From: Rozella allomycis CSF55
Lineage: Eukaryota
Length of the DNA stretch: 64,000 nucleotides
Assembly: GCA_000442015.1 (NCBI GenBank)
Contig: KE561209.1
Location: 124,001-188,000 of the forward strand
Direction of reading: 5' to 3'
The stretch's first letter is position 1. The number at the start of each line of letters is the position of its first letter. Of the stretch, positions 5,512 to 51,356 are shown in pieces. Under the pieces are notes generated by a model that made no database searches, was not told the origin of the DNA, and saw only the letters and a list, made by a program, of their open reading frames with translations. A program made the translations under genes and the position numbers.

Positions 5512-5780
5512 GTGCGTACTTGAATTTTGAAAAAAAAGTATGTGTAGATTTAATTTTAAGGCAAAGAAGTTCTAGATTTTTATTGTGTTTCAAGGTAGTT
5601 AAATGAGAAAATAAATCACATGATTTATCCTCCACTAACACTTCATCCGGGCCGAAGTCGTACATTGTAAGTTGTAACATATGTCAGTTTTTAAATTCTG
5701 TCCAGTTTAATCCAAGAAGCCGCCATGTATCATTTTCAGCCTGATAGCATATTAATTAATATTTTTCCAAAATCACGGAA

Positions 5781-7497
5781 ATGACATTGAGAATTTTGGG
5801 TAATTGCGTTGATTCAAGAAAATACACCACTATTCGCCCGATATATAAAAGAGCAAATAACTTCAATGTCTTAAATAACAAACATTTAGATTTTTTTAAT
5901 TCTCTTTTGGAAAAAGAGGAGATTCAAACTAAAGATTTGGATTCTTACAATACCGACTGGATGAAAAAATATAAAGGCCAGTCAAAACTAGTTTTAAAGC
6001 CCAAAGAAGCATCAAAAATATCAGAAATTCTTCGTTATTGCAACATGGAAAAGTAGAATCGATAATCTTACTACTTTAGACTTGCCGTTGTTCCTCAAGG
6101 AGGAAACACTGGTCTTGTGGGCGGTTCAGTACCGGCATTCGACGAAATAATTCTATCGACCAAAAATATAAACAAAATTATTGCTTTTGATAAGACTAAT
6201 GGAGCAATAGTATGTGAAGCTGGTTGCATTCTTCAAACATTAGATGAATATGTCCAAGAAAACGGATTTATTGTCCCACTTGATTTAGGGGCGAAGGGTA
6301 TGGTAGTGCGAAATATATGATCTAGGAAGTTGCCATATAGGTGGTAATGTTTCCACTAATGCCGGTGGTTTACGCCTTATGAGATATGGTTCTCTGAAAG
6401 GTTCAGTTTTGGGGCTTGAAGCAGTAACGGTTTTGAATGTTCTCTAAAGATATTGGCTGATGGGGCCATTCTTTCAAATTTAAACACAATGAGAAAAGAC
6501 AACACGGGTAATGTCTTACAATAACAAAGTTATTGGCTATGATCTAAATCAACTTTTCATCGGTTCGGAAGGGACATTAGGGTTCATAACTAAAGTCTCG
6601 TTACTCTGTGTTCCTAAACCAAAAGTAAACTTACCTTCTGCATAATTATGGCACAAAATGTACTTTTGTTTGGTGTCAATAGCTATGAAAATGTTTTGCA
6701 AATGTTCAAGCTTACAAGAAGCATTTGTTCTGAAATTCTTTCGGGTGATTGTGATAATTGTGTTAATAGCAGCATTTGAGTTCTGGGATGAACATTCAAT
6801 GGAATTGACATTGAAAAACGCAAAACTGCATAGTCCATTGGCTGGACTACATAAGTTCTATGTACTCATTGAAACTTCTGGGTCTGATAGTGATCATGAT
6901 CAAAGCGTATGCTCTCTTATTTAAAATAGATATATATAGAAGCTTGATAAATTAATGAATGAAGGTTTTAGTAAAGAAATTGTACAAGATGGCATTATGG
7001 CACAGGATGTTAGCCAGGTAAAATTGGTATGAATCAAATTAAGATCAAAAATATATGGTCGTACAGAGAATTTATTCCGGAAGCCTGTTCCAGAGAAGGC
7101 TCAATGCTCAAATATGACATATCTTTACCTCAATCAAAATTGTATAGCATTGTTGAGTTAATCCGAGAAAAACTTGGAAAAAGTGTTTCTAATGTAATTG
7201 GATATGGACACATAGGTGATGGTAAAGTCAAATGAATGTTTACATAAGGCAATTTACATCTGAATATCTCATGCATGATTATTCTCCTGATTTGATTAGT
7301 ACAATCGAGCCCTTAGTTTATAATTATGTGGCAGAAAATGGAGGAAGTATTAGCGGCGAGCATGGCATTGGAATTATGAAAGTCAATTATCTACAATACG
7401 CAAAATCACCAAGCTCAATTAAATTGATGAAAAAATCTAAAGAATATGCTTGATCCCAATTCCCAATGGTATTTTAAATCCTTACAAAGTCTTTTGA
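5781..7497 (+). CDS. DLD2: D-2-hydroxyglutarate / D-lactate dehydrogenase (FAD-linked, DLD2-like), 9 introns, apparent C-terminal frameshifts
   Basis: [72 protein letters not shown]. Confidence 0.92.
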
Positions 7498-23485: not shown

Positions 23486-26400
23486 TTAACTCCTTTTGAG
23501 TTTAGTCAAGGAAAATAGATTTTCCGGTGATCTAAATAGATTAATTAACTGCCTAAATATTGTTTCTTCCATTAAATGATCTTTAAACTCTCGAGCCAAA
23601 AGTAAATTCTACTATAACAAATTAAGAACATTTACTTCGCACATTTCCAATATGGGGTCAATGTTTGGAATGTCTTCGTACACAATTCTAAAAGACATTC
23701 CTGTGACGATCATTCTAAGAAATCGACCAAAAGTAAAAACAACGGCAACGTACAGACCAATAACACCATATGAACTAATGGCAGATATGGCGGCAATATT
23801 ATCAGAATAGACGAAAACAACAAATTTATCGTTTGTATTATTAAAGTTGCTTATTCGTTGATTAATTTCAAACCAAGTGACAGATTCTGATGTCTGCTTC
23901 AGTAGAGTATATGTATTTTTATTGGTACCTTGTGATGTTTGTGGAATTGATCTATTTTGAATGTTTTATTTGATTACTCTAGTTTGCCTGTTGGATATGA
24001 TCTTAATAAGAGTGGTAAAAGGGCAGGAATTTCAGTTTGGGCGTACGACTCTGATGAATTTAGCAAGTCAGCCAAAGAATTTAATTTTGAAGTAATATTT
24101 GCAGTCGTTGAACCAGAAGAAGAAACAATCGTAGCTGAAGGATGCAAGACAGACCAATCAGCGACCAATGGTGAAGTTCTATTGTTCTTTGCCAAATCAC
24201 GCAATGTATCGATTAATTGAACTTTACTCTTGGGATTTATTTCCCAATTGCTGCTTGAAAACTAGTTGATGATGTATGGAAATGATTACTGAACTAAAGG
24301 AGACTTTTTGAATATTATTTTTTCCAGCGAAAGAGGGAAGATTAAAATTTTCTTTTAAAAACTTGTATTCCATGTCATTTATCGCTTCAATTCCAGTTTC
24401 ATTAGTAGTATCTGTGGCTTGGTCAAAAAGAGGCTCAAAGCCGCCAATTCTCAACGTGACTTTTAATGAAGAAATTGGGTTAGGTTGTGTTGTGCCTGGA
24501 ATAGATAGGAAAAGCAATGGAAACCAAATAAGAAAAATCAACCCGACAATCATCAATCCACAAAGGAGCCACTTGTTTGCTTTTGGCTGAATAGTTCCAA
24601 ACTTGCGAGGATAATTTTTGATGGCTGTTAGACTGCATTTAACATTGAAAACATTAACGTAAATATCTTCAAACTTTAGCCAATTGTAAAAGTCTAGACA
24701 AGTGTCTGTTACTGCCCAATCAATTATTGATCTAATTTCAAAGATGAAAGGAATTGATCTATAAACAATATTTGCAATACGATTAATTAGATTGTATTGG
24801 TTGATGATAAAAAAGGAACTCTTAAACTTTGGATACCCATGTTTTAGCTGGAGTGCGGCAAAGTACCAATAAAGACATTTAAAAAAGTACCATATCTGCA
24901 ATTGAATTAAATTTTTGATGTATTGCCTATTGTTAAGTTTGCTATATAAATTACTTGTTTGAGATTGTTAAAGCAAAAAATACCCATAGATGAAAAGAAA
25001 CTACAGAGAATATTTGAAGAATGAATTTGAACAACCAATTTTTGGCGCCATAAATACCCCTGTCGATAATAATTAAACAAAAATTAATCAATTCAATTGC
25101 AACAAATAGAGGAGGTACAGTATTTTGAGAAAATATCTAATGAGAGAAAGATGAAAAGGTTACATTGTTTAGAAATTGTAAATCTTGGGCAGTCCCTTTT
25201 TCACCCGAGAAGGAATCCCAGAAAAAGACTGTTAGAGTAAAGCAAATGAAATCACAAATGAACATTGGAAGGTAGAAATCTTTACCGAATGTTTCATTTA
25301 AATGTTCGTTAAATTTAGATTTCAGAGTTTCCCATAGGGAAGGTTTTCTGGGGACATCGAGTGGTTGATGGTTTAAAGAGAAACTAGAGATTGGAGAGCT
25401 TAAAGTTTGAGGAGAGCTAGTTGATTCGTAAGGAGAATCAATTCCTTTTCTTTTGGTGTTGTAGTTGCTCATTTCATAATTAAAGGGTCCATCGTCAACA
25501 TTTGATGCATTTGCATTCCCCAATTCAACATCGGTTTGTCTATTAAGCAATTCAACATCGTTTTGTCTATTATAGACTTCGACATCACCTTGTCTATTAC
25601 CTTGTTCTTCAACGTTGTGCTTTTCAACTCCTTTTAAATCTTTGAAATCCCATAACCCAGTTCTTCTCATGATTGAGCGTTGAATGACAAGAGAAAACAA
25701 AACAAGAATTTCAACGTTGCTTGAAGAAGAAAAGGAAGAACAAACTTTGAATAAACCAAATATTCTTGACCAAGAAAACTCTACCTTTTCTTCACAGTTA
25801 AAGGAAGAATCAATGAAAGGAAATTGAAAAATGTATCTAAAGAGAATCATGTAAACGGAATAAACAAGTAAAGAATGCCAAAAGTAATGATTGGGACGAG
25901 GTCTGCTTAGTAGACCAAAAGTTAAGATTAAAACCATTGGAATTGTTGTGATTACAGAGCCGCGTTCAATTTGAAGAAGAAAAAGAAAAAAGAAGCAAAT
26001 TAAATCAAATCTTGCTAAAATTAAGAAATAAATTGAATAAAGGAATCTTTTAAAAATATTTTTGTTTGAATATTTCTGAAATGGTTCATTGCATATTTTT
26101 CTATACAAATGAGACCAAGAAAATATTTTAATTATCAAACCTTTCAAAAAACTCACAATCACTCTTTCAGTAGCCAAGGTATCTCTCTGGTTAGTTTCTT
26201 TCTCAATGATATCTTCATTATCATCTCTTTCACCGCTAACGTTCTCTTTAACGTTCTTTTCATGAAGGCTCATTTCATCCTTTTCTCTTTTAAGGCCCAT
26301 TTCATCCTTGTCTCTTTCACCCCATTCCCTATCACCTTCGTTGAATGTAGGACTGTTTAATTCACTTTCAGATATTTCATTGAATAATTCTTTATCATTT

Positions 26401-29400
26401 TTAGAAAGATTTTCAGTAGCTTTTTCATAAACATTTTCTAAATGCAAAGAAATTTGATTTTCAGTTTTTTCATGAATATTTTGAGTGAAATTTAAATCTT
26501 TATCAACAGAAGAATTAGAAGAAAAATGAGAAGGTGAATCAAAGGAAGAATTAGGAAAATTGCTTTTGGTGTCTTTACTCTTTATGTCTTCACTCTTCCC
26601 TTGCGTACTTTTCCCTTCCTTACTGCCTTCATTTTCACCCCCTTCACCATTTTCACCCCCTTCACCCTCTTCCTCACAATTGTTGAATAAATCAATCCAA
26701 TCTTCAATTCCTTCACATTTGTTTTTGTGAATAACCATTTTAGAATAAAGATTTATAATTTGCTTTTCATAATTTATAAGATTTTGTTTCAATTCAATTA
26801 ATTGTTCAATTTTAAACAATTCAGATCTATTTGAAGCTTCCATTAATTCTTGCTTAGATTTCTTAATACAATTTCTCATTTCAGGTAAAAATGTTAAATT
26901 TGAATGAATTAGAATCAAAAAGAATAAAAAAATCATTCCTAAATAATCAAAATCAAAAATATTTTCATTTTGCAATTTATAAAACCCAAAAATTGTAAAA
27001 AAATTAACTTTGCAATTTCTGAAATTTACACATGGGGAATCACCATTGTTAAATATAAAATAGACTTGAAATCCTAAAATAACCCAAAATAGAATCAATA
27101 TATAAATTAAAATAAATCTAAAATTGTTATTCTTATTTAAAAACAATCGTTCTCCAAGAATAATCAAGTAGAGTGAAAATGAGAATAAACCAAGAGAAAT
27201 CAAATTGATTCTAAATATAGATGTAAAACAACTTGTTATCAAAATTAACCAAAAAAAGTTTCTCAAAACAAATGTAGAAAGTTTAGATGAAGCAGTTGAA
27301 GTGGCAATGGAGAGATTTGTTACTGATCGAGTAGAGAGATTTGTTAATGATCGAGTAGAAACATTTAATGATAAATTTATTACTTTGAATGTTAAAATGT
27401 AATAAATCAACATTTCAATTCCAATAGAAACATTAATGGAATCTTCATTCTTAAATCCAAATAAACCGCTAATTTCTTTACTAAACGTTATTGGAATTAA
27501 ATCATTTAAATAATTAATTTGTGATGCATAATAAACGCTTGTAAGAATTCCAAATACTATTGATTGACCTTTAAGATTAAATCTTTTGAATATAAAAATG
27601 CTAACAATTAAAAGAAAATAAAAACTTGTCAAATTTTGTCTAGCAAATCCTCCAAACAAAATTAAAGTAATCAAAATCTCCATTTTAAAATATAAAATTC
27701 CATTGAAAAGACAAGTTAAAACATTTGCTACTTTATCCACTTTTTCATCTTTAATTTTATCATTTTTAATTATTGAATGTAATAGAATAATGAATCCCAA
27801 TAAAATTTCAATAATAAAATACTCTGAAAGTGGAATATTCAAATTCTGAAATTTCGTTAATCCAATTTCATTTAAAATTTTATTTTCTGGAAAACTTTTT
27901 AATTGATAAATAATTTGACTGGCCATATTAATCTCTCCAAACAAAAGAAACATGAAATAGTTATTCTGAAATTTACTAAAAATGAAGAATAAAATTAGCA
28001 AGGCGAAATTAATTAAAGAAATAGATCTAGTAATTAACAAATAAACAAGAATAAAAATTATTAATCTTGAAAATTTAAATATTACAAATTTCAATGATTC
28101 CCAAGCGATTGCCATATTAGATTTAGACACAATTTGAGAATCATTTTTAGAATCATTTTTATCCATTTGAATATCTTTTTCACTTTTTGTGTCTTCCATT
28201 TCAATCGCTTTCTTTTCAGTGGAGTCTCTTATTACTACTAAACCATTCATTTCTTTTTCTCCTACAGATCTTCCTTCTACAGATCTTCCTTCTACTCTTC
28301 CTTCTAAAGATCTTCTTTCTACACTTTTTTCTTCCGCTTCTTTTTTTCTCATAATTCTGAAATTTAAAACACTCAAGATTAATAAAATAACATGCGGCAA
28401 TAAATATGAAAATAATTTTCCAGATGCATCTCTAAGCCCCAGATCTAAGATTAGATCTTCATTCAATTCATTTTTAATTTTTTCTTTAAAATACTTAAAT
28501 TGATAAAGATAAAGAAATGCAATAACAGAAGATGAATAAATAACAGAAATAGTCCAACTGTACAAAATAACTTTTCTAAATTGAAAATACAAACAATTAA
28601 TCCAAAAGAATAAAAATATTAAATATCCAAAACTTAACAAATTTGCTTCCTTCATAAAACATCCACAAAGTAAAAAACTTATCATTGTGACAATCCACGT
28701 GTATTTCTTTAAAATTGAATCTTTAAATTCTTTCCATTTCTTCAATTTTTCATTTCTTTTATTCTTCAAAAAGTAAAATGTTTGCAATTGAATTGTTGAC
28801 AATCCTAAAATAACCAAATACAATGTCATTCCTTCCCATAACCTTTCATACTTTGATAATCCAATCACACTCGAAATTTCAAAATTATCTTTCACAAAAC
28901 TAAACTGCCAAATATATTCTGTTAAAATAACAAATTCTGTATAAATAACTAAAACTGGCCAAAATACTTTCACTGTCCATGGAAAGGTCATAAAAATCAA
29001 AAACAATATCAAATAAATCGCATTAATCACAGTCACCTTTTCTAAACTACAAAGATAAATCAAACAAAGTGAAATTATATAAGCATAGGACAACAAAATA
29101 GAAGAACCAACTTTAATCAAATAAAATCCACTCTTCTTCACCCTCTCAATCCAAGACATCTACCATTATATTAAAGTTTTATTATTACCCTTTTATTTTC
29201 TATTGATTCTTTCTTTTCTTCTCTCAAATCTTTCCATTCATAATTAGTCAGCAAAAGCAATCCCAATGTCAACACTTTAACGCCAATTTCTAAAATTGGT
29301 ATTTTATCTCCAATCACTCCAATCTCTTTAACAATTCTATTATCATCTTTAAAATTAAACACGCAAAACAAATATTCCACAAACACAACCAAACTCATCC

Positions 29401-30529
29401 AAAATATTACATATGAAACTGTAGCCTTGTGAAACGATCTCTCAAGTAAAATAATCAATAATGCCCAAACTAAAATAGGTATAGAAACAAAGCTAGGGAA
29501 TTGAACAGCCCAAAAGATTGAAATACACGAAGATATTATCCACGAATTCTTCTTTATAACCCCAAAATTTATTCCTTCAAATACAATCTTCAAATCTCCC
29601 TTATCATACTTGAATACTTTAGACATTTGCTTAATCCCATGACTTCTACATCTATAATACAAATACTTTGCAATAAATATAAATTCACCTAAAATCAATG
29701 ATCCACTTAAAATGTCTTCCCAATTATTCAATTTAACAAAAAAGTACTCATTAGAAAACTCAAATATTTGACGCAAATACAAAATCAATAAAAATATTAT
29801 AGAATAAAAAAACTTAATGTTTTGAAATAGATTAAAAAATGACTTTGTGTATTTGCCAAATCCAATCATTAGCATCTCATACATGAAAATAACAAAAAAT
29901 ATCACAAAAGGAACCCTCTTACTAACAACAGATCCCACACCTGATAATATAATCGATAACAGCAATGTTATTCTACGAGTACGTCCAAATCTTGATGTTA
30001 TCAAATCTTCTGTTGGTTCAATAATCGCCTGTCCTGATTCACTTGCACTCTGATAATTTCGTCCCATACTCCAATCATTATTCAACGGACGAGTTTGCAT
30101 TTTAAAGGCATTAAAGAAAATAGCAACCACACTGCATACACACAGAATGACATCAGTGCCCACACTAACAAATAGCTCAAAATGATCTGTAGAGTTGGTC
30201 ATCCCAAACAATTTAGACCACTCTGGAAGGCGAAAATCAAATGCAAATGTTCTCGTTGTTTGAACAGCCGCATGGACAATACTCATCGAAATACTCAATA
30301 AAGCTACACTATATAAAATCAACTTTCTTAGCCATCCTATATTTCTATCATAAATTATTTACTGAAAGATGGTAGAAAAAATATCAAACTAGCAATAAAT
30401 AGAACAAAATAAATAAAAGAGACAATGTTAAACCTAACTACAGCACCTATAAATTATATATTGATTAATCTTACTGTACAATAAAATAATAGGCCATATA
30501 CTCTCAACTAAACGTCGAGTAGTTAACAT
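23486..30529 (-). CDS. PIEZO: Piezo-family mechanosensitive channel, ~6 introns
   Basis: ~7 kb multi-TM gene; ALQLKHGYP, PFIFEIRSIIDW, WLKFEDIY, LIWFPLLFLS, YGVIGLYVAVVFTFGRFLR, LFRSPE. Confidence 0.92.
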
Positions 30530-31464
30530 TAAAATAAAAATAGTTGAAACAGTTAACAGGGGTTTCAAATCAAAGCTAAAATAGTAAAAAATACATCATT
30601 TCTATATTCAAGAGTTTTTAATGATTTAATCGATGTTTTCCCTTTCCTCTACTGTGCACAAGGCTGACACGGAGGGTTTTCGACTTTTCGTCTTATATAA
30701 GAATATGTGTCGCTCCAAGCGCTTATAGTCATAAATTGGATAGTAATATTAAAGACAAATGAATAAAAACAGATGTCGAATAATAATGGATTATCTCCGA
30801 TTGTTTATTGAATATCGCCTCGGAATTTATATTCTATAAATAGTACCAGAATAGAGATCCGTTCAGGAATAAATTTAAGAGATCTCAGATCCTGGCTCAA
30901 CTTTGGTTATGAGTTTAAGGCGTAAATATTAGTTCATCTGAGATACCTCACATGGTCCATGGTCCGTGGAGACAATATTTACTTACCGTATAGTGACTAC
31001 CGGTAGGTGGATTTGACCAAGCCACAATTTTTATAACCGAAATCGTTTAAATATCGAAAACGTAGAAAAAGCATTTATTTCTATTAATCAATGCCTTTTA
31101 GACAGCATGGTGCCATGGTCTCACGAGACTACATTGGAAATAATGATTCATTGAGCGAAGAAGAGTAGCGCCCACTAAATAAATAAATTACCAAAGTTAC
31201 TTACTGAAAATGCTTCATCTTGGCATGTAGCCTTGTACATATTTGGCCAGTGGCCACGTAGTCACGGACCCCGGTATGAATATTTTTCTGTCTCTTTTCA
31301 TGGCATTTTTATTATCGTTACCTTTAAAGAATTTGAATATCTGTGATACTAAAAGCGGAGTTGCCATGGTAATGGGTTGTCATTTGTCAATACTATAATT
31401 GAACCTTCCATATTGCCAATAATGAGTAGTATTTTTTATTATGAATGCTTATACGTTGTTGTCN

Positions 31465-32515
31465 GGATTTGAATAAAAATGTTCTAAAAGAGAATATTTC
31501 AATCCTTTAACAAAATTTAAAATTGATAAATCAAAAAGTGAAAAATGATCCAAAAGAAGTTTCAAAGATTTAAACCCCAGTCTAAATCTCATTTCACTCT
31601 CAACAAAAAACTATTTTTAATCTTCTTCATTTCTTACTTTTAAAATTAATTCATCCAAACATTTCTCTGGTTGCTCCAATTTAAATAATTCTAATTGCAA
31701 AAATGAACAACTTTGTCTCGTTAATACTTGATGAAACATTTCCATCGACGTCGCCATTCCAAATATCAACGTTAAATTCAACTTCTTTTGATGAATGCTA
31801 TTATTTCTTCCTTTAATTCTTACCTCAACAAACAAATCAATGCCTCCAACACTTTCGCATCACAACCTTCAAAGTCTGGAATCATCAATATCAATTTTCT
31901 CTCTTTATTTGTTTCATACCAATCATTCAACACTGAAATATCATATGCCAATCTCTTTCTATTAGAATTTATCAACACCCCTTCAATTTCTTCTTCATCA
32001 ATCAAATCTCCACTCTTTGTAAATTTCGTAATTATAGATTTCACTGTTTGTTTCAAATTATTCACCTGATCCAATATCACTATCCTAGACTTCTTTTCAT
32101 TCCTCGATAATTCCATCCTCAATCTTTGGAATAACGATACTCTATTCGTTGAATGCATCCCTATCTTCACTCAAAAATTTATCTACCAACAAACAACAAT
32201 GCAGTAGGAATGTCACCCATAAAATCAACCTGGTCTTGAAACACAAACTCTGCCATTTCATTAAACACCCTTTGATGAACCTTTTCAGTTACTTCCTATT
32301 ATACCAAACTAAAATAAAATATACATCAACTATATTCTCAAGTTCTGACAATGCTTCCTGGTACTCCTTCATCCTCTCATCACCCTCGTCAGGCAACAGT
32401 TTTACAAAATGCTCAGTCATCGTCTTTGGCTTTTTACATTTCGGTTGCACTATATAACACGCCTATCTCATACAAATACAACTAGTACCTGAGAAACAGA
32501 ATCAAATTTTGTCAT
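31465..32515 (-). CDS. ORC3: Origin recognition complex subunit 3, 3'-truncated at assembly N (31464)
   Basis: LMIPDFEGCDAKVLEALI, LIFGMATS, LKYSLLEHFYSNP running into the N. Confidence 0.8.
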
Positions 32516-35812: not shown

Positions 35813-36103
35813 TTATTTTCCTCCTTTGTATCCATACTTCGACGTACTCCATTTTCCTTTTCCTTTTACTTCAGGTGCACATTTCTGAATAACGGAAGAG
35901 TATGATTTAAAACTACAGCTGGTTTGTGTTCTTGGGTCTGGGTTTTGAGAATAACATCCTTGGTGGTAAAAGAATCTCATTTTACGCCCATCCCGAACCA
36001 CAACGTTTTCGCCCTTGTGAATAATTTGCTTACATTCTCTGCAAGAATGTCCCATTCTATTTGCTGATCCGGTAGATATAGTCCAATACGAATTATTAGA
36101 CAT
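35813..36103 (-). CDS. Small PARP-type zinc-finger-like protein
   Basis: SCRECKQIIHKGE...FFYHQGCY (C-x2-C...H-x2-C). Confidence 0.6.
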   Translation of the reverse strand: MSNNSYWTISTGSANRMGHSCRECKQIIHKGENVVVRDGRKMRFFYHQGCYSQNPDPRTQTSCSFKSYSSVIQKCAPEVKGKGKWSTSKYGYKGGK

Positions 36104-36272
36104 TTATATTAGGTTGTTAAGTTGTAGTGGCCAAAAATAGACCAGCCCTTAAAGCTAAACACGCCACTATTGGAATTCGGACCAATCTTTTTGTAATGCA
36201 AGAAGCATTCATTATCAATCAAATTATAACATCCAAAAATATAATCAATTAATATAATGATTTTTTTATTAA

Positions 36273-36827
36273 TTAAACATGAACAATGTCTGTGAGACCA
36301 ATGAATCTTTGCGGATCGGAAGAATAAATGGTGGAAGAACCAGGCATATTGTAAATGGGGAGGTTCGGTCCGTTAAAACCAGAACCATTGCCACCTACGA
36401 TTGTCACATCAGCACAATTCATGTAGTATTCTGGTTGTCCTGATAACACTGGAACCCATGACCATGCGAAAACAGCATTTCCCGATGGAGCATTTTGAGG
36501 AATCATGACTTGATAATTATGATTGATAGGGCATGACTTGTCAGTAGACGAAATGACCTTGAAAGTATGACCTCCATCGTAGGAGAGGGAAAATAAGCAA
36601 CCGCCACCACCGTGGGGAGCACCTCCAGATATGACGACTTCAATTAGTGAGCCAGCTGTAAGGGTTGTTGTCGAGCCTCCTGCGTGTCTTCCCTGGCAAA
36701 GTTCTTTGGCGGGTGAATTATCTGTGCCTTGACGAGGGACGGGGACAGTCATGAGCATATGAGAAGTGGCAAGAGATAAGCATGCAAGTGAAACCAAGGA
36801 GGAAGTGAACAATTTGGAGAAAATCAT
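36273..36827 (-). CDS. Secreted lytic polysaccharide monooxygenase, AA11-like
   Basis: Signal peptide then His1 (HMLMTVPVPR); APHGGGGCLFSLSYD; FAWSW..GQPEYYMNCADV. Confidence 0.85.
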   Translation of the reverse strand: MIFSKLFTSSLVSLACLSLATSHMLMTVPVPRQGTDNSPAKELCQGRHAGGSTTTLTAGSLIEVVISGGAPHGGGGCLFSLSYDGGHTFKVISSTDKSCPINHNYQVMIPQNAPSGNAVFAWSWVPVLSGQPEYYMNCADVTIVGGNGSGFNGPNLPIYNMPGSSTIYSSDPQRFIGLTDIVHV

Positions 36828-36955
36828 TTTACAGGGGTCTGAGTGCGATCGAGTGGCTTATATACCCCGCTTGACCCTGTGAACCTGAGCGATAAGGGCA
36901 AAGAAATGCTATCGATAAGTCATGCATAGCGCATTCTTTCTATCCTTGGAAACCC

Positions 36956-37590
36956 ATGGCGTTGGCATCACGTAATGAAAATGTTTTGATCATAAATTGC
37001 ACGCCTCTTAACGGCTCTTTCCTAGAGAGAAGGTCAATCTCACTGCAGGAAAATGACTCTATTTTAGTTGGGCGATTTTCTGAAGGTAATAATGTAAAGG
37101 AGAAAATTGACTCTCTTTTGTTTGCCTCGCCTGTAGTCAGCCGCAACCATGCAATTGTAAAGAATGCTAAAGGAAAGGTATGCATATAATAATGAATTAA
37201 AACTTGATTGTCTTAATGGATACGAATAGTTCAGGAGGAACATTTGTTAATGGAAAAAGGATTAATGCAAATGAAGAAGTTGAGATCAATGATGGGGAAA
37301 AGATTCAATTTGGAACTACTCATAAGACGCCTAATGGAAGTAATTTTCTTGAAGATTCTATTAGTAGTTGTAATACCGAGTATTCAATTGCAAATAAAGA
37401 TACAGAATCCATACCAAGAAGAAGCGTACAAGTAATCAATTTAAAATATTTAACCTTTAGTGACATCAGCAAAGATCCTGTGGTTCAAGCTGCTGTCGAG
37501 AATGAGTTCAACAATATCTGGAATACTTTGAGCATGTCCATTCCAGATCCCATTGAATTATTGAGCAAATATAAACTGAAAAACGTGTAA
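36956..37590 (+). CDS. FHA-domain protein, 3 introns (first apparently GT-TG)
   Basis: ILVGR, SPVVSRNHA, DTNSSGGTFVNG, DGEKIQFG. Confidence 0.85.
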
Positions 37591-37666
37591 TATTTTTGAA
37601 TAAACTCTCGCTTTCAAATTTAAGTCTAGTTAGCAAACAAGCCACCAACTTTCCAGGGTGGAAAAA

Positions 37667-38835
37667 ATGGCTGAAATTAATCTTATTCGTAATAACGATG
37701 CCTTTTATCGTTATAAAATGCCTAGACTCCAAGCCAAAGTTGAAGGTAGAGGAAACGGTATTAAAACTGTAATTCTCAACATGGCTGAAATCGCAAAAGC
37801 CGTTTACAGACCACCTTCATGTATGATAATCATTTTAATATTATGAAGATATTACTAAGTTTTTTGGTGATGTTTTGGGAACGCAATCTAAGATAGATGA
37901 CAAGAATAACCGTTACGTTGTTAATGGAAAACATGAAACAATCAAACTGCAAGATCTTGTTTATGATTTTATTGAAAAATTTGTTCTCTGTCAATCAGGT
38001 TCTTGTAACAATCCTGAAACTGAAATTGTAATCCATCTTAGTTTATGAAAACAGATTATCCAAGGATCTGGAAAGAACAAGACTGCTGTAAGAAAATGTG
38101 CTGCGTGTGGTTATACAACACCTTTTGATCCTGTTAATAAATTGACAAACTATATTATTAAGAATCCACCATCGCCAGCAATCGTTCCAGCAACTACAGG
38201 GGCAACAAAGCAACATGCTGATGCTGAAGAAGGGGAACAAGAAGAACACGAGCAAGTTGTACCAGAGCCCGAAGAACAAGAATTAGATGTTGAAGTTGAA
38301 TTGAAGGAAGAGAAGAAACAATTATATGCATTTGGAGAGGAAATCGCTGCTCATCCTGAATGGTCAGCAGAAGAAATTAAGAGAATGGCTGCAGAAAGGG
38401 ACATTGAAGAGCATAGAATTATTATTGTAGTAATGGAAAACTGTTTTACAGAAAATATTTTGGCAGAAATTCCAAAGAAGATTGACTTTCTAAGAGAAGT
38501 AATTTTAAGTAATATTAGAAAATAGTTTTTGAAAAGGCCAAGTTGCCAAAGAGGGTTAATTGGAGGTGTTGAACGCTTTGTAGGTATTCGCTATCCGGAA
38601 TTACTTTCTAAAACTGCTTTAATTTTAAAGACTTTGTATGATGAAGATCTTTTACAAGAAGAACCTGTTTTGGAGTGGGCTAAAAGATTGAATAAGAAAT
38701 ATGTAAGCAAAGATACTTGCAGAGCTGTCCACAAAGCAGCCAAACAGTTTGTGAGGTGGCTTCAGTAATGTTTTTCATTGATTTAAATTTAGAAATGCTG
38801 ATGAAGAATCTGAAGAGGAAGAATCAGATGAATAA
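37667..38835 (+). CDS. TIF5: Translation initiation factor eIF5, 4 introns
   Basis: [24 protein letters not shown], zinc knuckle CNNPET, W2 domain. Confidence 0.96.
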
Positions 38836-47206: not shown

Positions 47207-48972
47207 TTACTCTTCTTGTAAAACAGTGACTACTTCTGAAGCATCTGGACTTTGTCTTAAAGTCCAGTTTGATCCATTTGAAACAGCAATTTGTTTCATA
47301 ACCCTTTGATAAATCCCCTGTGGAAACTTCACTCTTAATTGCGTTTCGATTTCATTGATTATGTCGCCTTTTTTAAGTTGAGGTTTTTGAGTGAATAGTT
47401 TTAATATAACAGATCTATAAGGATCTATGGATTGATCTTGAATGGTTAGTAAAGCAACACATCTATTTGGTAAATGGATGATTGGGAGCTTGCTTAACAA
47501 ATTCTTCAACTCTTGTGAGTCTGAAAGACCTGAAATCGACAATAAATAATCATGGGAACAAATAGAATGTTCCAATAGAGCTCTTCTTATTTTCTGAACA
47601 TTTTCAGATTCGGGCTCATCAATTTCCATAAGAGAATTACTTTGACCCTCGGAAGAGGAAGGATTTGACTTTACTGCTGATTGTTTCTTTGTTTTCGGTT
47701 TTGTTAAATTCTTTAGAACTTTTTCAAACTCTTCTTCAAGTAATTTAGTTTGTCTTTCAACAATCTCTTTATGTTTTGAAAGAAAGGAATCATCTTGCAT
47801 TACTTTCAATTCCCAACCTTTTCCTGCTCTTAATCGCGCAATGTTTGTAAAGACTTCCTTTGCCAGTTCGTTAGTGATGTTGACATGTTCAATCACTTGT
47901 TTCCTTTGCACAAAATGAGATTGGTTAAATTGATGCAAAAGTTTCGTATGAACTTTAATTTGTGATTCGATTTTGTATTTGACGTCACCGCGGACAACCC
48001 AAACCCCCTGCACTAAATGAGCAACCCTTTCCAATTCTCTTAAAATATGTCTATCTTCTTTCTCAGTAACTATTTCCTTTATTTTGTTAAAAGACAAAAC
48101 ATTAGCATTCAAAAATAATGCTTTTATTTGCTCATCTAAAGGCATTTCTTGGAGTTCTTGTAATGAAATCTTTCCAGCATTTCCTTTGACCGGAATATAT
48201 CTTTTTACCAATAGAATTAATTTTTACTCTTGATCCTTTTCATAAGTTGTTGGACTAATAGAATTTAAATAGTCCTGTTTATTATCTTTCAAATGAAACA
48301 AGGTATCTGATTTCGATACCAATTTCCCCATAACTGTGGTGCTTTCAATAGACTTTTATTTCTTTCAAAATTAATTTACTTGTGATGGAAAATATTGATA
48401 CTGCACACTTGGTTCTTCGTTAATATCTTTAAGTTTTAGTGAAAGGGGTCGCTGTGAAATTTCATTCCCATCCATGTTCTTTTTTAAAACTTGTACATTA
48501 ACAATCTTTGGAGTATCATCTTCTTCCTCATCTTCATTATCATCCTTGTTATTGTCATCTATTCTATCAATATGGTTCAAAGTGGGCCTCATTTGGCTAA
48601 CACTTTTTATTGGAGTTAAATGAAGTTTCCCTACATTAACTAGTATTGTTAAGCTATACCATCTTTTATAATCGCAGCTGCATATACGGATTTTTGTTGA
48701 ACCTCGGATGAAGAAATTGAGTAATGCCCCATAACGTCTATTCCAGGTTCAGCTAATTTTCTTCCTTGTTCCTTGTCATATGTCACATGTGCAACATTTA
48801 GAGGAATCGAGAGTTCTAATACATTTGATTGTGATTTGAAGTATGCCTTTTCTGGTGGTAAAGGGTATCCTGAAGTTCTAGTAGGATGTAGCAACAAATG
48901 TAAATGTGGTGTAAGATGAGTAGATAACTGTACTGGAAGTGAAAACAGCTCTTTTCTTTCGGTTCCAGTCAT
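47207..48972 (-). CDS. RPC5: RNA polymerase III subunit RPC5/POLR3E-like, 3 introns
   Basis: LHLLLHPTR, LHLTPIKSVSQMRPTLNHID, AHLVQGVWVV. Confidence 0.8.
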
Positions 48973-49086
48973 ATTTTTTGGTGGCTGTGTATAACTCTCA
49001 ATGATTAGTCCAGCTGGTATTTAATTTATTTAACAATCAATAAAAATTAACTACTACGTTTCTATTATTTATAACATGATGATGGG

Positions 49087-51356
49087 ATGAATTTTGATTC
49101 AAGATTTTTCATAAATGGACTTACAGGGACAAACTTTGACTCGCGAGTACTTTAATGCGATGCTGCGACAAAATTTTGATCTTTTAGAATCACTTCCGAA
49201 ACCGTAACATGATTTGCATTATATAAGAAACAGTGACGGTGATATTTGGGCACTTGTGAAAAAACTTTACAAGATACGTTTACAAGATGAGATGGAGATT
49301 AGTTTCGAAAATAACAAAAGAGTTACCAACGCTTTCTTGATTTCACAGATTGAGAAAACTAAACCAGTTTCATTGTACATGTGTATCCTTGACTGGCTTC
49401 ATGACAAAGCATCTGAGCCTGAACTCGTTGAAAAAAAGAATGTGCACGTTGGAAATCCCGATGACTGGCTGGCATCGACTGCTAATTTGAATGATAGGGT
49501 AAATATTTTGGCACACGCTATTCAGAAATATGTTTGTGACATTTTTAGGATAACTTTTGGGTTATTAAGAAAAGGAGAACATAAAAGAGCTATGGAAATT
49601 GCAGAAAGTTATGAAATGTATTGGTTAAGCAGTATGATCAATGGTTATACTCCATGGAACTATGAATCTATTGCCTCTGTAGAGTAATTATAGTTTAGAT
49701 TAAATATTAAGCGGTGATATAAAATTCTCTGGGAATAAAAATCGCTTTCTATTCAAGGAAAGCTGCTTGAAAGCATCACAATCTGTAATTCAATTTGTAA
49801 TACATAAAGCAGGCTGGAATTGATGCATTCGCAAAAGCCATTTTTGGATTCTTGAGTGGCCAAGTTGATCTTATTCTTCCAGTGTGCAAATCATGGGAAG
49901 ATCATATTTGGGCGTACATTCATTGTCTAAAAGAACATGAAATTGACAAAGTAAGCAATATTTATATTTTTAACAAGATTCTTTTGTCAGTTTCACAGAT
50001 TACAGACTCTGAAGATGTTATGGAAAGATACATTCAAGGATATAATGGGACAATAGAAGACATCATTAGAGTCAACCAGTAAAGTTTATTTTTTCTTTTG
50101 AATAGAAATTATATTTCTCATGAATCTCAAAAATGGATTTCATTGATAATTTCAAATAATTTAGAATCTCTAGTGAAAGTTGACCCCTCAAAGGAAAACA
50201 GCACGCGTTTCCTTTGTCATCTTGCACTCTACTTAAGTAGTATTAACTATAAAATTCCAGATCATGCTTGCGATGATTTACTTTTAAGATATATTAACTA
50301 TTTGACTAGCAAAGACATGACTGTAATAACCTTTAACATACTTTACCAGGGTCGACAAGTTGCTTTCTATACTAAATTTTTAAGCCCGGGATTACAAGTG
50401 CAAGCATACTCAAATTTCATACTAAATTTTGATTGGAATAACTCTAAAATAGACAGGAAAGCTCTATTGGCAGAAGCAAAGTCTATTGGATTAAATTACC
50501 AGGGTATTGCTAAACTAGCAGTAGATAAAGGAATAGAAAACGCTGAAATCAAGGTATTTTTTTATATTAATTTATATATAGTTTAATGAGACGATGTCAG
50601 TTCCAGAACGTCCGGTGATTGAACTGATTGCAGGTACAGAGGAAGATGAACAATTAGTGTTGTCATTGGAATATTTATTGGCTGAAGATAGAATGATATC
50701 AGACTCTTTAATAAGATTTAACAAGATAATGCGTTTGTTTTTAGCATTTGGCAAACTTTCTTCATGCTGCCTCTTGATGAAGATTCTTCCAGCCATAGAT
50801 AGAAACTTTACGGCCCTAATAGCACCTGAAGAAATATCTGAAGATGAATGGGAAGTTTCAAAAAAAGAATTTTCTGATTATAAATTATTTTTGGAGGGCT
50901 ATTCGGCATTCATGGACTGGCAAACATGCTTTGCTCAAAAACCAGAAATTGCAGGTAATGCGCGCTTATATCAGGACTGGATGAACAAAATAAAAGACGA
51001 AGCAAACAAGGCTAATGAAGCATTAACGCAATGGATTTTGTCTGATTGGCTATTTAAGCCGTCATATTTCTATTCAAAGAAAAGTATTGTAAATTTCCCT
51101 TTATAATTTAGATACCAAAATTGGTTCACAGCTGGAAAATATTAGAGAAAAATATGTACCTGATCTTGTCTTAAAGTTTCAGGACCTCTTATATCAAACC
51201 GGATTAATTTATTCCAATTTCCTCAAAAAGTCATTAGAAATCGTGAGTATTTTAGCAGATAAGGGTTACCAATACGATTCCCTATTATCAGCCACACCAC
51301 AAATGCCAATTCTTTTGAAAAACATTCGTTCGTCATTCCTTCAAACTTTAAAATGA
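49087..51356 (+). CDS. NUP84: Nucleoporin Nup107/Nup84-like, ~10 introns
   Basis: ILDWLH, LLRKG, ILPVCKSWEDHIWAY, RFLCHLALYL, IREKYVPDL. Confidence 0.8.

What the first reader, a model, noticed from the sequence alone, without database searches (positions are those of the whole stretch)
37178..37206. FHA gene intron 1: GTATGC...CTTG with no AG
AAG|gtatgcatataataatgaattaaaacttg|ATT GTC TTA ATG GAT joins the SRNHA and DxxSxxGTFVNG halves of the FHA domain in frame. The 29-nt intron contains stops and no AG, and the next AG (37228-37229) is out of frame. The gene is otherwise intact, so this is the cleanest independent example.
Basis: seen in the sequence. Interest (0 to 1): 0.75.

Follow-up and report, generated by a model that had tools for sequence, protein, structure and literature searches.

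The report
Mini-intron lacking its AG acceptor
A small signalling-domain (FHA) gene of the fungal parasite Rozella is split by a typical 29-base intron that ends in TG, not the near-universal AG, so the gene is either newly broken or spliced in an unusual way.

Summary
Bases 37178-37206 (29 nt, GTATGC...CTTG) contain no AG. The next AG, at 37228-9, is out of frame. Only removal of exactly these 29 nt rebuilds an FHA domain (62 bits joined; halves 12 and 42 bits).

T at 37205 stands in high-depth DNA contigs of three runs from two studies, so a sequencing error is unlikely. The window matches Rozella allomycis CSF55 gene models.

About 60-67 other introns in the window are 23-31 nt (mode 27) and can all be read as GT..AG, so this is an isolated exception, not a habit of the genome. 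Apart from the A-to-T at position -2, the intron's signals score better than most of its neighbours.

No RNA data could be found, so splicing at TG is untested.

- **Most likely (0.55):** a recent acceptor mutation. Splicing falls to the next AG or fails, giving truncated 80-aa or 77-aa products.
- **Main rival (0.28):** TG works as the acceptor.

The public gene model dodges the problem with a 144-nt intron and loses the FHA domain. A second gene in the window (FAD-linked oxidase, about 7269-7273) carries a 1-nt frameshift.

The parts
36956..37177 (+). Exon 1 of the FHA gene (ATG to ...AAG); encodes the first half of the FHA domain including SRNHA
   Evidence: ORF. Pfam FHA profile 10-30, 21.6 bits. 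First 44 residues identical to public model P0001.
37178..37206 (+). 29-nt mini-intron-like insert, GTATGC...CTTG, with no AG
   Evidence: 5' site score 9.26 (rank 56 of 67). 3' context without the AG columns 2.53 (rank 58 of 67). AT 0.79 against a mean of 0.74. Removing exactly 29 nt gives the best FHA score.
37205..37206 (+). Terminal TG where all other introns of the window have AG; T at 37205 is the deviant base
   Evidence: Contigs of X1, X2 and X5 cover it with 0 other letters.
37207..37339 (+). Exon 2: second half of the FHA domain (IVLMDTNSSGGTFVNG...QFG)
   Evidence: Pfam FHA profile 34-67, 30.7 bits. Best solved relatives Vps64 6a8w (E 0.011) and SLMAP 6ar0 (E 0.018).
37228..37229 (+). 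Next AG downstream, 23 nt past the TG; out of frame with donor 37178; the acceptor used by the public gene model
   Evidence: the 52-nt intron gives an 80-aa truncated product. P0001 uses acceptor 37229 with donor 37086.
37340..37367 (+). Candidate intron 2 (28 nt, GTAAT...TAGTAG); inferred, not shown
   Evidence: Scores 8.38 and 4.06, AT 0.75. Together with 37432-37460 it removes 57 nt and keeps the frame. The read-through frame is also open.
37368..37431 (+). Candidate exon 3 if introns 2 and 3 are real; otherwise part of one long exon
   Evidence: Both readings are open. Codon score is 0.33 per codon spliced against 0.26 read through, which is not decisive.
37432..37460 (+). Candidate intron 3 (29 nt, GTAATC...TTTAG); used by the public model P0001
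   Evidence: reconstructs P0001 with this intron. 5' score 9.49, AT 0.83.
37461..37590 (+). Last exon and stop codon TAA (37588-37590)
   Evidence: the C-terminal 42 residues are identical to P0001.

Best explanation
This is a genuine spliceosomal mini-intron of the kind that fills this genome: GTA start, about 27 nt, AT-rich. Its acceptor dinucleotide reads TG in the DNA, most simply through one A-to-T change that turned TAG into TTG.

- **Shown:** the DNA base, the intron-like anatomy, and that only a 29-nt excision restores the FHA domain.
- **Inferred:** in this window the acceptor used is nearly always the first AG ending 23 nt or more from the donor. The spliceosome would therefore most likely go on to the AG at 37228-9 (52-nt intron, frameshift, stop after 6 codons) or leave the intron in (stop after 3 codons). 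Most transcripts would then be unproductive.
- **Consequence:** the gene is a very young pseudogene or a strong hypomorph, with at best a minor fraction spliced at TG. No other lesion is visible, so the change would be recent.
For: - T at 37205 stands in contigs of three runs from two studies, at depths 1036, 244 and 16.5, with no alternative letter listed.
- Donor score ranks 56 of 67 and 3' context without AG ranks 58 of 67. Length 29 nt lies within the 23-31 nt range.
- Every other junction could be solved with GT..AG. That is 79 of 93 ORF-pair junctions. Of the 14 without, one was solved in another frame, one is a frameshift, 11 lie antisense to or between Pfam-supported genes, and one is this intron.
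- The used AG is the first AG ending at 23 nt or more in 65 of 67 introns, which predicts use of 37228-9 here.
- In humans, AG>TG acceptor mutants activated neighbouring AGs and did not splice at TG, and TG was never the sole acceptor (PMC2374985, abstract and section 12 read).
- A second gene in the window, the FAD-linked oxidase, has a 1-nt frameshift inside the conserved GHIGDG-NLHLN region. Its public model P0002 skips that region. Gene-breaking lesions therefore occur here.
Against: - The gene shows no second lesion. Exon 2 onward is open for 127 codons, and two further intron-like elements keep intact GT..AG ends and compensating lengths. This fits a gene still in use as well as a very recent mutation.
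- The G at -1 is kept, and TG is the one non-AG acceptor documented to work (PMC2374985).
- The TG lies at 29 nt, inside the narrow length range of the window's introns, while the 52-nt alternative lies outside the 23-31 nt range of my set.
- My intron set was chosen by requiring GT..AG and favouring GTA and 24-34 nt. The 'first AG' rule and the 67 of 67 AG count are therefore partly circular, and a few of the 67 are probably spurious (for example 22310 and 15363).
- The DNA runs may all come from one strain, and two may be the assembly's own source.
Confidence: 0.55

Rival explanations
1. The TG is a working acceptor. In introns this short the 3' end is set mainly by distance from the donor and branch site. 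The retained G at -1 is enough for exon ligation, so the FHA protein is made normally.
For: - The 29-nt length is inside the window's narrow length distribution.
- Internal AGs are skipped in 42 of 67 introns, so position matters as well as sequence.
- The gene is otherwise intact.
- An AG lies 23 nt downstream, within the 28-nt TG-AG distance limit reported for human TG acceptors (PMC2374985 section 12).
Against: - None of the other roughly 60-67 introns in the window needs a non-AG end.
- Apart from GTA, AG and length, the introns carry almost no information, so losing AG removes a large share of the signal.
- In humans TG never acts as the sole acceptor.
- There is no RNA evidence.
Confidence: 0.28
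2. Sequencing or assembly error, or a minority variant: the true base at 37205 is A and the intron is an ordinary GT..AG one.
For: One substitution would make it canonical (TTG to TAG). X1 and X2 are flagged as possible sources of the assembly. Contigs drop rare variants (text).
Against: Three runs from two samples and two studies give T at high word depth, with no other letter listed at that place. The same table does list variants at other places, such as 33078 and 40913. P0001 comes from a separate single-cell assembly by its name, and it matches the window's exons exactly, including the use of AG 37228-9.
Confidence: 0.05
3. The public model is right. The gene uses a 144-nt intron (37086-37229), there is no FHA domain, and the FHA-like halves are a relic or chance.
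For: P0001 is built only from GT..AG introns and is open.
Against: P0001 has no Pfam match, while the two skipped or out-of-frame pieces each pass the FHA gathering score. Together they score 62 bits against an FHA profile built from unrelated sequences. A 144-nt intron is far outside the 23-31 nt range seen here.
Confidence: 0.07
4. Not an intron: the two halves are joined during translation by ribosomal frameshifting or bypassing.
For: The two frames differ by -1/+2.
Against: The upstream frame stops at 37187 and the downstream frame opens only at 37201, so no single shift can connect them. The standard code fits the window, with a 1340-aa ORF. The insert has this genome's donor motif.
Confidence: 0.02

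Closest known systems
TG 3' splice sites in U2-type introns of human genes (Szafranski et al. 2007, PMC2374985; abstract and section 12 read)
   Same: A GT...TG intron with an ordinary donor. The G at -1 is kept. An AG lies within 28 nt downstream (here 23 nt).
   Different: In humans TG is only an alternative to a nearby AG that gives a viable product, and it is conserved in orthologues. Here the nearby AG gives a frameshift, TG would have to be the only productive acceptor, and neither use nor conservation is shown.
Acceptor-site AG>TG mutations that inactivate or misdirect splicing (human disease alleles as summarised in PMC2374985 section 12; yeast UAG-to-UUG second-step mutants, recalled and not looked up)
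   Same: A single-base change at -2 of an otherwise good intron. The predicted outcome is use of the next AG or a block at exon ligation.
   Different: This is a natural allele fixed in the sequenced strain of a fungal parasite, in a 29-nt intron. The outcome has not been measured.
Ultra-short spliceosomal introns (Paramecium about 25 nt, chlorarachniophyte nucleomorphs 18-21 nt, Stentor 15 nt; recalled, not looked up)
   Same: A very narrow length range (here 23-31 nt, mode 27), AT-rich, and little signal beyond the terminal bases.
   Different: Those systems are described as strictly GT..AG. This intron lacks AG. For Rozella I saw only totals in the supplement to PMC8476143: 20,623 introns and 950,194 nt, a mean of 46 nt.
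FHA domain proteins of the SLMAP / Vps64 (Far9) type
   Same: The second half of the domain has these two as its best solved matches (6a8w E 0.011, 6ar0 E 0.018). The FHA domain lies at the N-terminus of a short protein.
   Different: The matches are weak. The first half has no solved relative at E<=10 and no relative among 1.8 billion representatives except its own gene model. I saw no membrane anchor or coiled coil, but did not test for them.

Membership tests
U2-type GT-AG spliceosomal intron | GT at the 5' end with the genome's donor consensus | tested here: met
   GTATGC; PWM score 9.26, rank 56 of 67. A score this high occurs at 25 of 127,911 other positions.
U2-type GT-AG spliceosomal intron | AG at the 3' end | tested here: not met
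   Ends in TG, with no AG anywhere in the 29 nt. The DNA base is confirmed.
U2-type GT-AG spliceosomal intron | Length and composition typical of the genome's introns | tested here: met
   29 nt (6 of 67 introns are 29 nt; range 23-31). AT 0.79 against a mean of 0.74.
U2-type GT-AG spliceosomal intron | Removal restores a continuous conserved protein | tested here: met
   All 19 best of 251 joined variants remove exactly 29 nt. With donor 37178: 62.1 bits for 29 nt, 58.4 for 26, 57.0 for 23, 56.5 for 32. The alignment across the junction has no gap.
U2-type GT-AG spliceosomal intron | Spliced junction seen in RNA | not testable with these tools
   No RNA run holding the stretch was listed. The four runs laid were DNA contigs with no joint at introns.
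U12-type (minor) intron | Extended donor consensus (A/G)TATCCTT (consensus recalled) | tested here: not met
   The donor is GTATGCAT.
TG-AG tandem acceptor (Szafranski 2007) | An AG acceptor within 28 nt of the TG | tested here: met
   TG at 37205-6 and AG at 37228-9, a distance of 23 nt. The limit is from PMC2374985 section 12.
TG-AG tandem acceptor (Szafranski 2007) | Both sites used, with TG as an alternative | not testable with these tools
   No RNA data.
FHA domain (PF00498) | Match to the Pfam profile above the gathering score | tested here: met
   Exon 1 scores 21.6 bits and exon 2 scores 30.7 bits against a cut-off of 20.7. Profile positions 10-30 and 34-67 are complementary.
FHA domain (PF00498) | Conserved Gly-Arg, Ser-x-x-His and Asn-Gly residues (list recalled) | tested here: inconclusive
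   VGR and SRNH are present. The usual S-x-N-G-T reads S-S-G-G-T, with Gly in place of Asn. One metagenome FHA (L015) shows the same STGGTF.
Programmed ribosomal frameshift | Overlap of the two open frames at a shift site | tested here: not met
   There is a 14-nt gap between the stop of frame 0 (37187) and the opening of the second frame (37201).

The most novel reading that the evidence does not exclude
In Rozella's roughly 27-nt introns the 3' end is set by a molecular ruler, so that a GT...TG intron of the right length is spliced constitutively. This would be the first TG that serves as the only productive acceptor of a gene.
Probability: 0.25. Interest if true: 0.65.

Novelty: new member of a known kind. 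Interest (0 to 1): 0.35.

Why it matters
- **Annotation:** the public gene model of this locus is wrong in either case. It hides an FHA phosphopeptide-binding domain behind a 144-nt intron and an out-of-frame exon.
- **If the acceptor is dead:** together with the frameshifted FAD-linked oxidase gene 30 kb away, it is a snapshot of ongoing gene decay in a reduced intracellular parasite related to microsporidia.
- **If TG is used:** it gives a natural test of how the acceptor is chosen in ultra-short introns, which carry almost no signal besides GTA, AG and length.
- **How to settle it:** one RT-PCR decides between these readings.

Tried and rejected
- **No RNA holder listed.** The single run search returned DNA holders only. 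The four runs laid were contigs without splice joints.
- **Whole genome not held**.
- **Earlier notes of the scan:** none for this genome, and nothing relevant by words.
- **Homologues of exon 1:** only its own model P0001 among 1.8 billion representatives, and no PDB chain at E<=10.
- **Homologues of exon 2 by word index:** only P0001.
- **Metagenome scan:** 33 loci, all generic FHA domains matching residues 1-76 at most and not orthologues. I used 29 of the 33 only to build a profile.
- **Genome-contig scan with the FAD-oxidase piece:** no relative.
- **Codon-usage scoring** separated coding from non-coding poorly and could not decide between the spliced and read-through versions of 37340-37460.
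- **Branch-site motif:** I looked for one in the 67 introns and found none.
- **Literature:** searches found no paper in the held library describing Rozella's intron length mode or non-AG introns. The original genome paper (James et al. 2013) was not seen.
- **First versions of two scripts were faulty.** One search was too verbose, and one search used a wrong exon end that put the variants out of frame. They were redone.

Full report
**What the window is.** The window uses the standard genetic code, with one 1340-aa open frame. GC content is about 34%. It is packed with eukaryotic housekeeping genes: hexokinase, importin beta, eIF5, eIF4A, PheRS, Piezo, ORC3, Cdc6 and others (Pfam on 150 ORF fragments). 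Two public proteins named by their sources as Rozella allomycis CSF55 are built from this very DNA. P0001 can be rebuilt exactly from window coordinates. P0002 is 100% identical over the queried 60 residues. No whole genome is held for the window.

**The observation.** Bases 37178-37206 read GTATGCATATAATAATGAATTAAAACTTG, which is 29 nt with no AG.
- The frame starting at ATG 36956 runs into TAA at 37187.
- The frame that encodes the rest of the FHA domain opens only at 37201. The two open frames are separated by 14 nt, so no single ribosomal shift can join them.
- The next AG starts at 37228. With donor 37178 it gives a 52-nt intron and an 80-aa product that stops 6 codons after the junction. 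Retention gives 77 aa.

**Removing exactly these 29 nt is what the protein needs.**
- Pfam FHA matches exon 1 at residues 53-73 (profile 10-30, 21.6 bits) and exon 2 at residues 2-36 (profile 34-67, 30.7 bits). Both pass the 20.7-bit cut-off.
- I built an independent FHA profile from 29 of the 33 uninterrupted FHA reading frames fetched from metagenomes and scored 251 stop-free joined variants.
- The 19 best variants all remove exactly 29 nt. With the GT donor at 37178 the scores are 62.1 bits (29 nt), 58.4 (26 nt), 57.0 (23 nt) and 56.5 (32 nt). The separate halves score 11.7 and 41.5 bits.
- The alignment across the junction has no gap.
- Among the 29-nt variants listed's top 30, only the one at 37178 starts with GT, and it ends in TG.

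**Is the base real?** Contigs of three runs cover the site with no differing letter: X1 (record 36740-37562, depth 1036), X2 (36274-37344, depth 244) and X5 (36387-38103, depth 16.5). These come from two samples and two studies. The same table does report variants at other places. X1 and X2 may be the source of the assembly, and all runs probably stem from one strain. This rules out a simple error but not strain-specific mutation.

**How the other introns of the window look.**
- Of 36 junctions that I picked from Pfam continuity or long ORFs, 31 had a GT..AG solution of 70 nt or less.
One search lists ordinary introns for RPC5 (48659-48631) and Piezo (25163-25137, 24954-24927); I did not resolve the BCS1 junction (gap of 74 nt).
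- One, in the FAD-linked oxidase gene, has a normal 27-nt intron (7222-7248) followed by a 1-nt frameshift. The fifth is the FHA intron.
- An automatic pass over all ORF pairs gave 93 junctions, 79 with a GT..AG solution. Of the 14 without, one was solved in another frame (Carb_kinase, 29 nt). Eleven lie antisense to or between Pfam-supported genes (not checked one by one). The other two are the same two cases.
- The best GT..AG solutions include 67 with GTA or GTG starts and lengths of 23-31 nt. The counts by length are 23:1, 24:5, 26:14, 27:20, 28:19, 29:6, 30:1 and 31:1.
- This set was chosen by requiring GT..AG and favouring GTA and 24-34 nt, and a few members are probably spurious. Its uniformity is therefore partly built in.
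- Within the set, 42 of 67 contain internal AGs that are passed over. The AG used is the first one ending 23 nt or more from the donor in 65 of 67. No position other than GTA and AG carries information, and there is no branch-site motif.
- A supplement table of PMC8476143 lists 20,623 introns totalling 950,194 nt for this species, a mean of 46 nt (passage seen).

**How the FHA intron compares.** Its donor scores 9.26, which is rank 56 of 67. Its last ten bases, scored without the AG columns, give 2.53, which is rank 58 of 67. Its AT content is 0.79 against a mean of 0.74. A donor this good occurs at only 25 of 127,911 other positions in the window. It is therefore a good intron of the local kind with one deviant base: T instead of A at -2.

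**What the public annotation did.** P0001 equals exons 36956-37085, 37230-37431 and 37461-37590. It has a 144-nt intron that swallows the SRNHA half, reads the second FHA half out of frame, and returns to frame through a 29-nt intron at 37432-37460. P0001 has no Pfam match. It looks like a predictor's way around the missing AG.

**Rest of the gene.** Two further intron-like elements lie downstream: 37340-37367 (28 nt) and 37432-37460 (29 nt). Both start with GTAAT, end in TAG, and are AT-rich (0.75 and 0.83). Together they remove 57 nt and keep the frame. The read-through frame is also open, and neither codon scores nor my profile decide between the two readings. Intron-like motifs of this quality occur about 8 times in 14 kb of long exons. 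Two in 380 nt with compensating lengths mildly favours real introns. This part is inference.

**What the protein is.** It is an N-terminal FHA domain in a protein of about 183-202 aa. The second half is nearest to the FHA domains of Vps64 (6a8w, E 0.011) and SLMAP (6ar0, E 0.018). The first half has no detectable relative apart from its own model. The usual Asn in the S-x-N-G-T loop is Gly.

**Mechanism.**
- *Shown:* the DNA has TG, the element has the anatomy of a local mini-intron, and only its exact removal gives an FHA domain.
- *Inferred:* I rate a recent acceptor mutation as most likely (0.55). Every other intron here can be read with AG. The first-AG pattern predicts the out-of-frame AG at 37228-9. 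In the one systematic study I could read, TG never acted as the sole acceptor, and AG>TG mutants switched to neighbouring AGs (PMC2374985, abstract and section 12).
- The frameshifted FAD-oxidase gene in the same window, whose public model P0002 omits the conserved GHIGDG-NLHLN stretch, shows that gene-breaking lesions exist in this assembly. I could not check that one in reads.
- Against this reading, the gene has no second lesion. The TG sits at a canonical length and keeps the G at -1. An AG lies 23 nt away, within the 28-nt limit reported for human TG-AG tandems. A working TG acceptor therefore remains a serious rival (0.28).
- Error (0.05), the public model (0.07) and translational recoding (0.02) are minor.

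**Comparison and novelty.** It works like, and probably is, a U2-type intron, but it fails the AG criterion, so I do not file it as a canonical GT-AG intron. It resembles human TG acceptors in form but not in context. I found no paper in the held library on Rozella intron lengths or non-AG introns. The original genome paper was not available to me. As an isolated case without RNA evidence it is of modest interest. It would become notable only if splicing at TG were shown.

Noticed in passing
7222-7310 (+), FAD-linked oxidase gene (about 5760-7450): After a normal 27-nt intron (7222-7248) the conserved GHIGDG-NLHLNI stretch runs in one frame. The following ...[18 protein letters not shown] runs in the frame one base earlier, with only 5 nt (7269-7273) where two codons are expected. 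This is an apparent 1-nt deletion with no intron solution. The public model P0002 skips the whole conserved stretch. Not checked in reads.
   Followed up: partly
whole window: Introns are extremely short and uniform: 67 candidates of 23-31 nt, mode 27, GTA...AG, AT 0.74. There is no detectable branch-site motif, and internal AGs are skipped in 42 of 67. The acceptor is the first AG ending at 23 nt or more in 65 of 67. The set is partly defined by my selection rule.
   Followed up: partly
31335-32001: Word depth jumps about 7-fold or more in all four runs (8173 against about 1170 in X1). Many contigs break with loose ends at 31459-31465, so this is a repeated element. Two N's of the window lie nearby: an X appears in an ORF at 31449-31610.
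   Followed up: no
47343-50000: Run X5 carries contigs at depth 4,300-15,800 that differ from the window at many places between 48200 and 49839. One of them replaces 2 nt with 142 other letters at 48990-48993. X1 and X2 match the window exactly there. This may be a high-copy divergent copy or another organism in that run.
   Followed up: no
36276-36857 (-): The neighbouring gene encodes a secreted-looking protein with weak matches to lytic polysaccharide monooxygenase families (LPMO_10 E 0.008, AA9 E 0.009). Its region (36001-38000) has the highest GC fraction in the window's 2-kb profile (0.377).
   Followed up: no
23615-30358 (-): A very large Piezo-type mechanosensitive channel gene with one 4-kb exon. 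GC in this region falls to 0.25-0.27.
   Followed up: no
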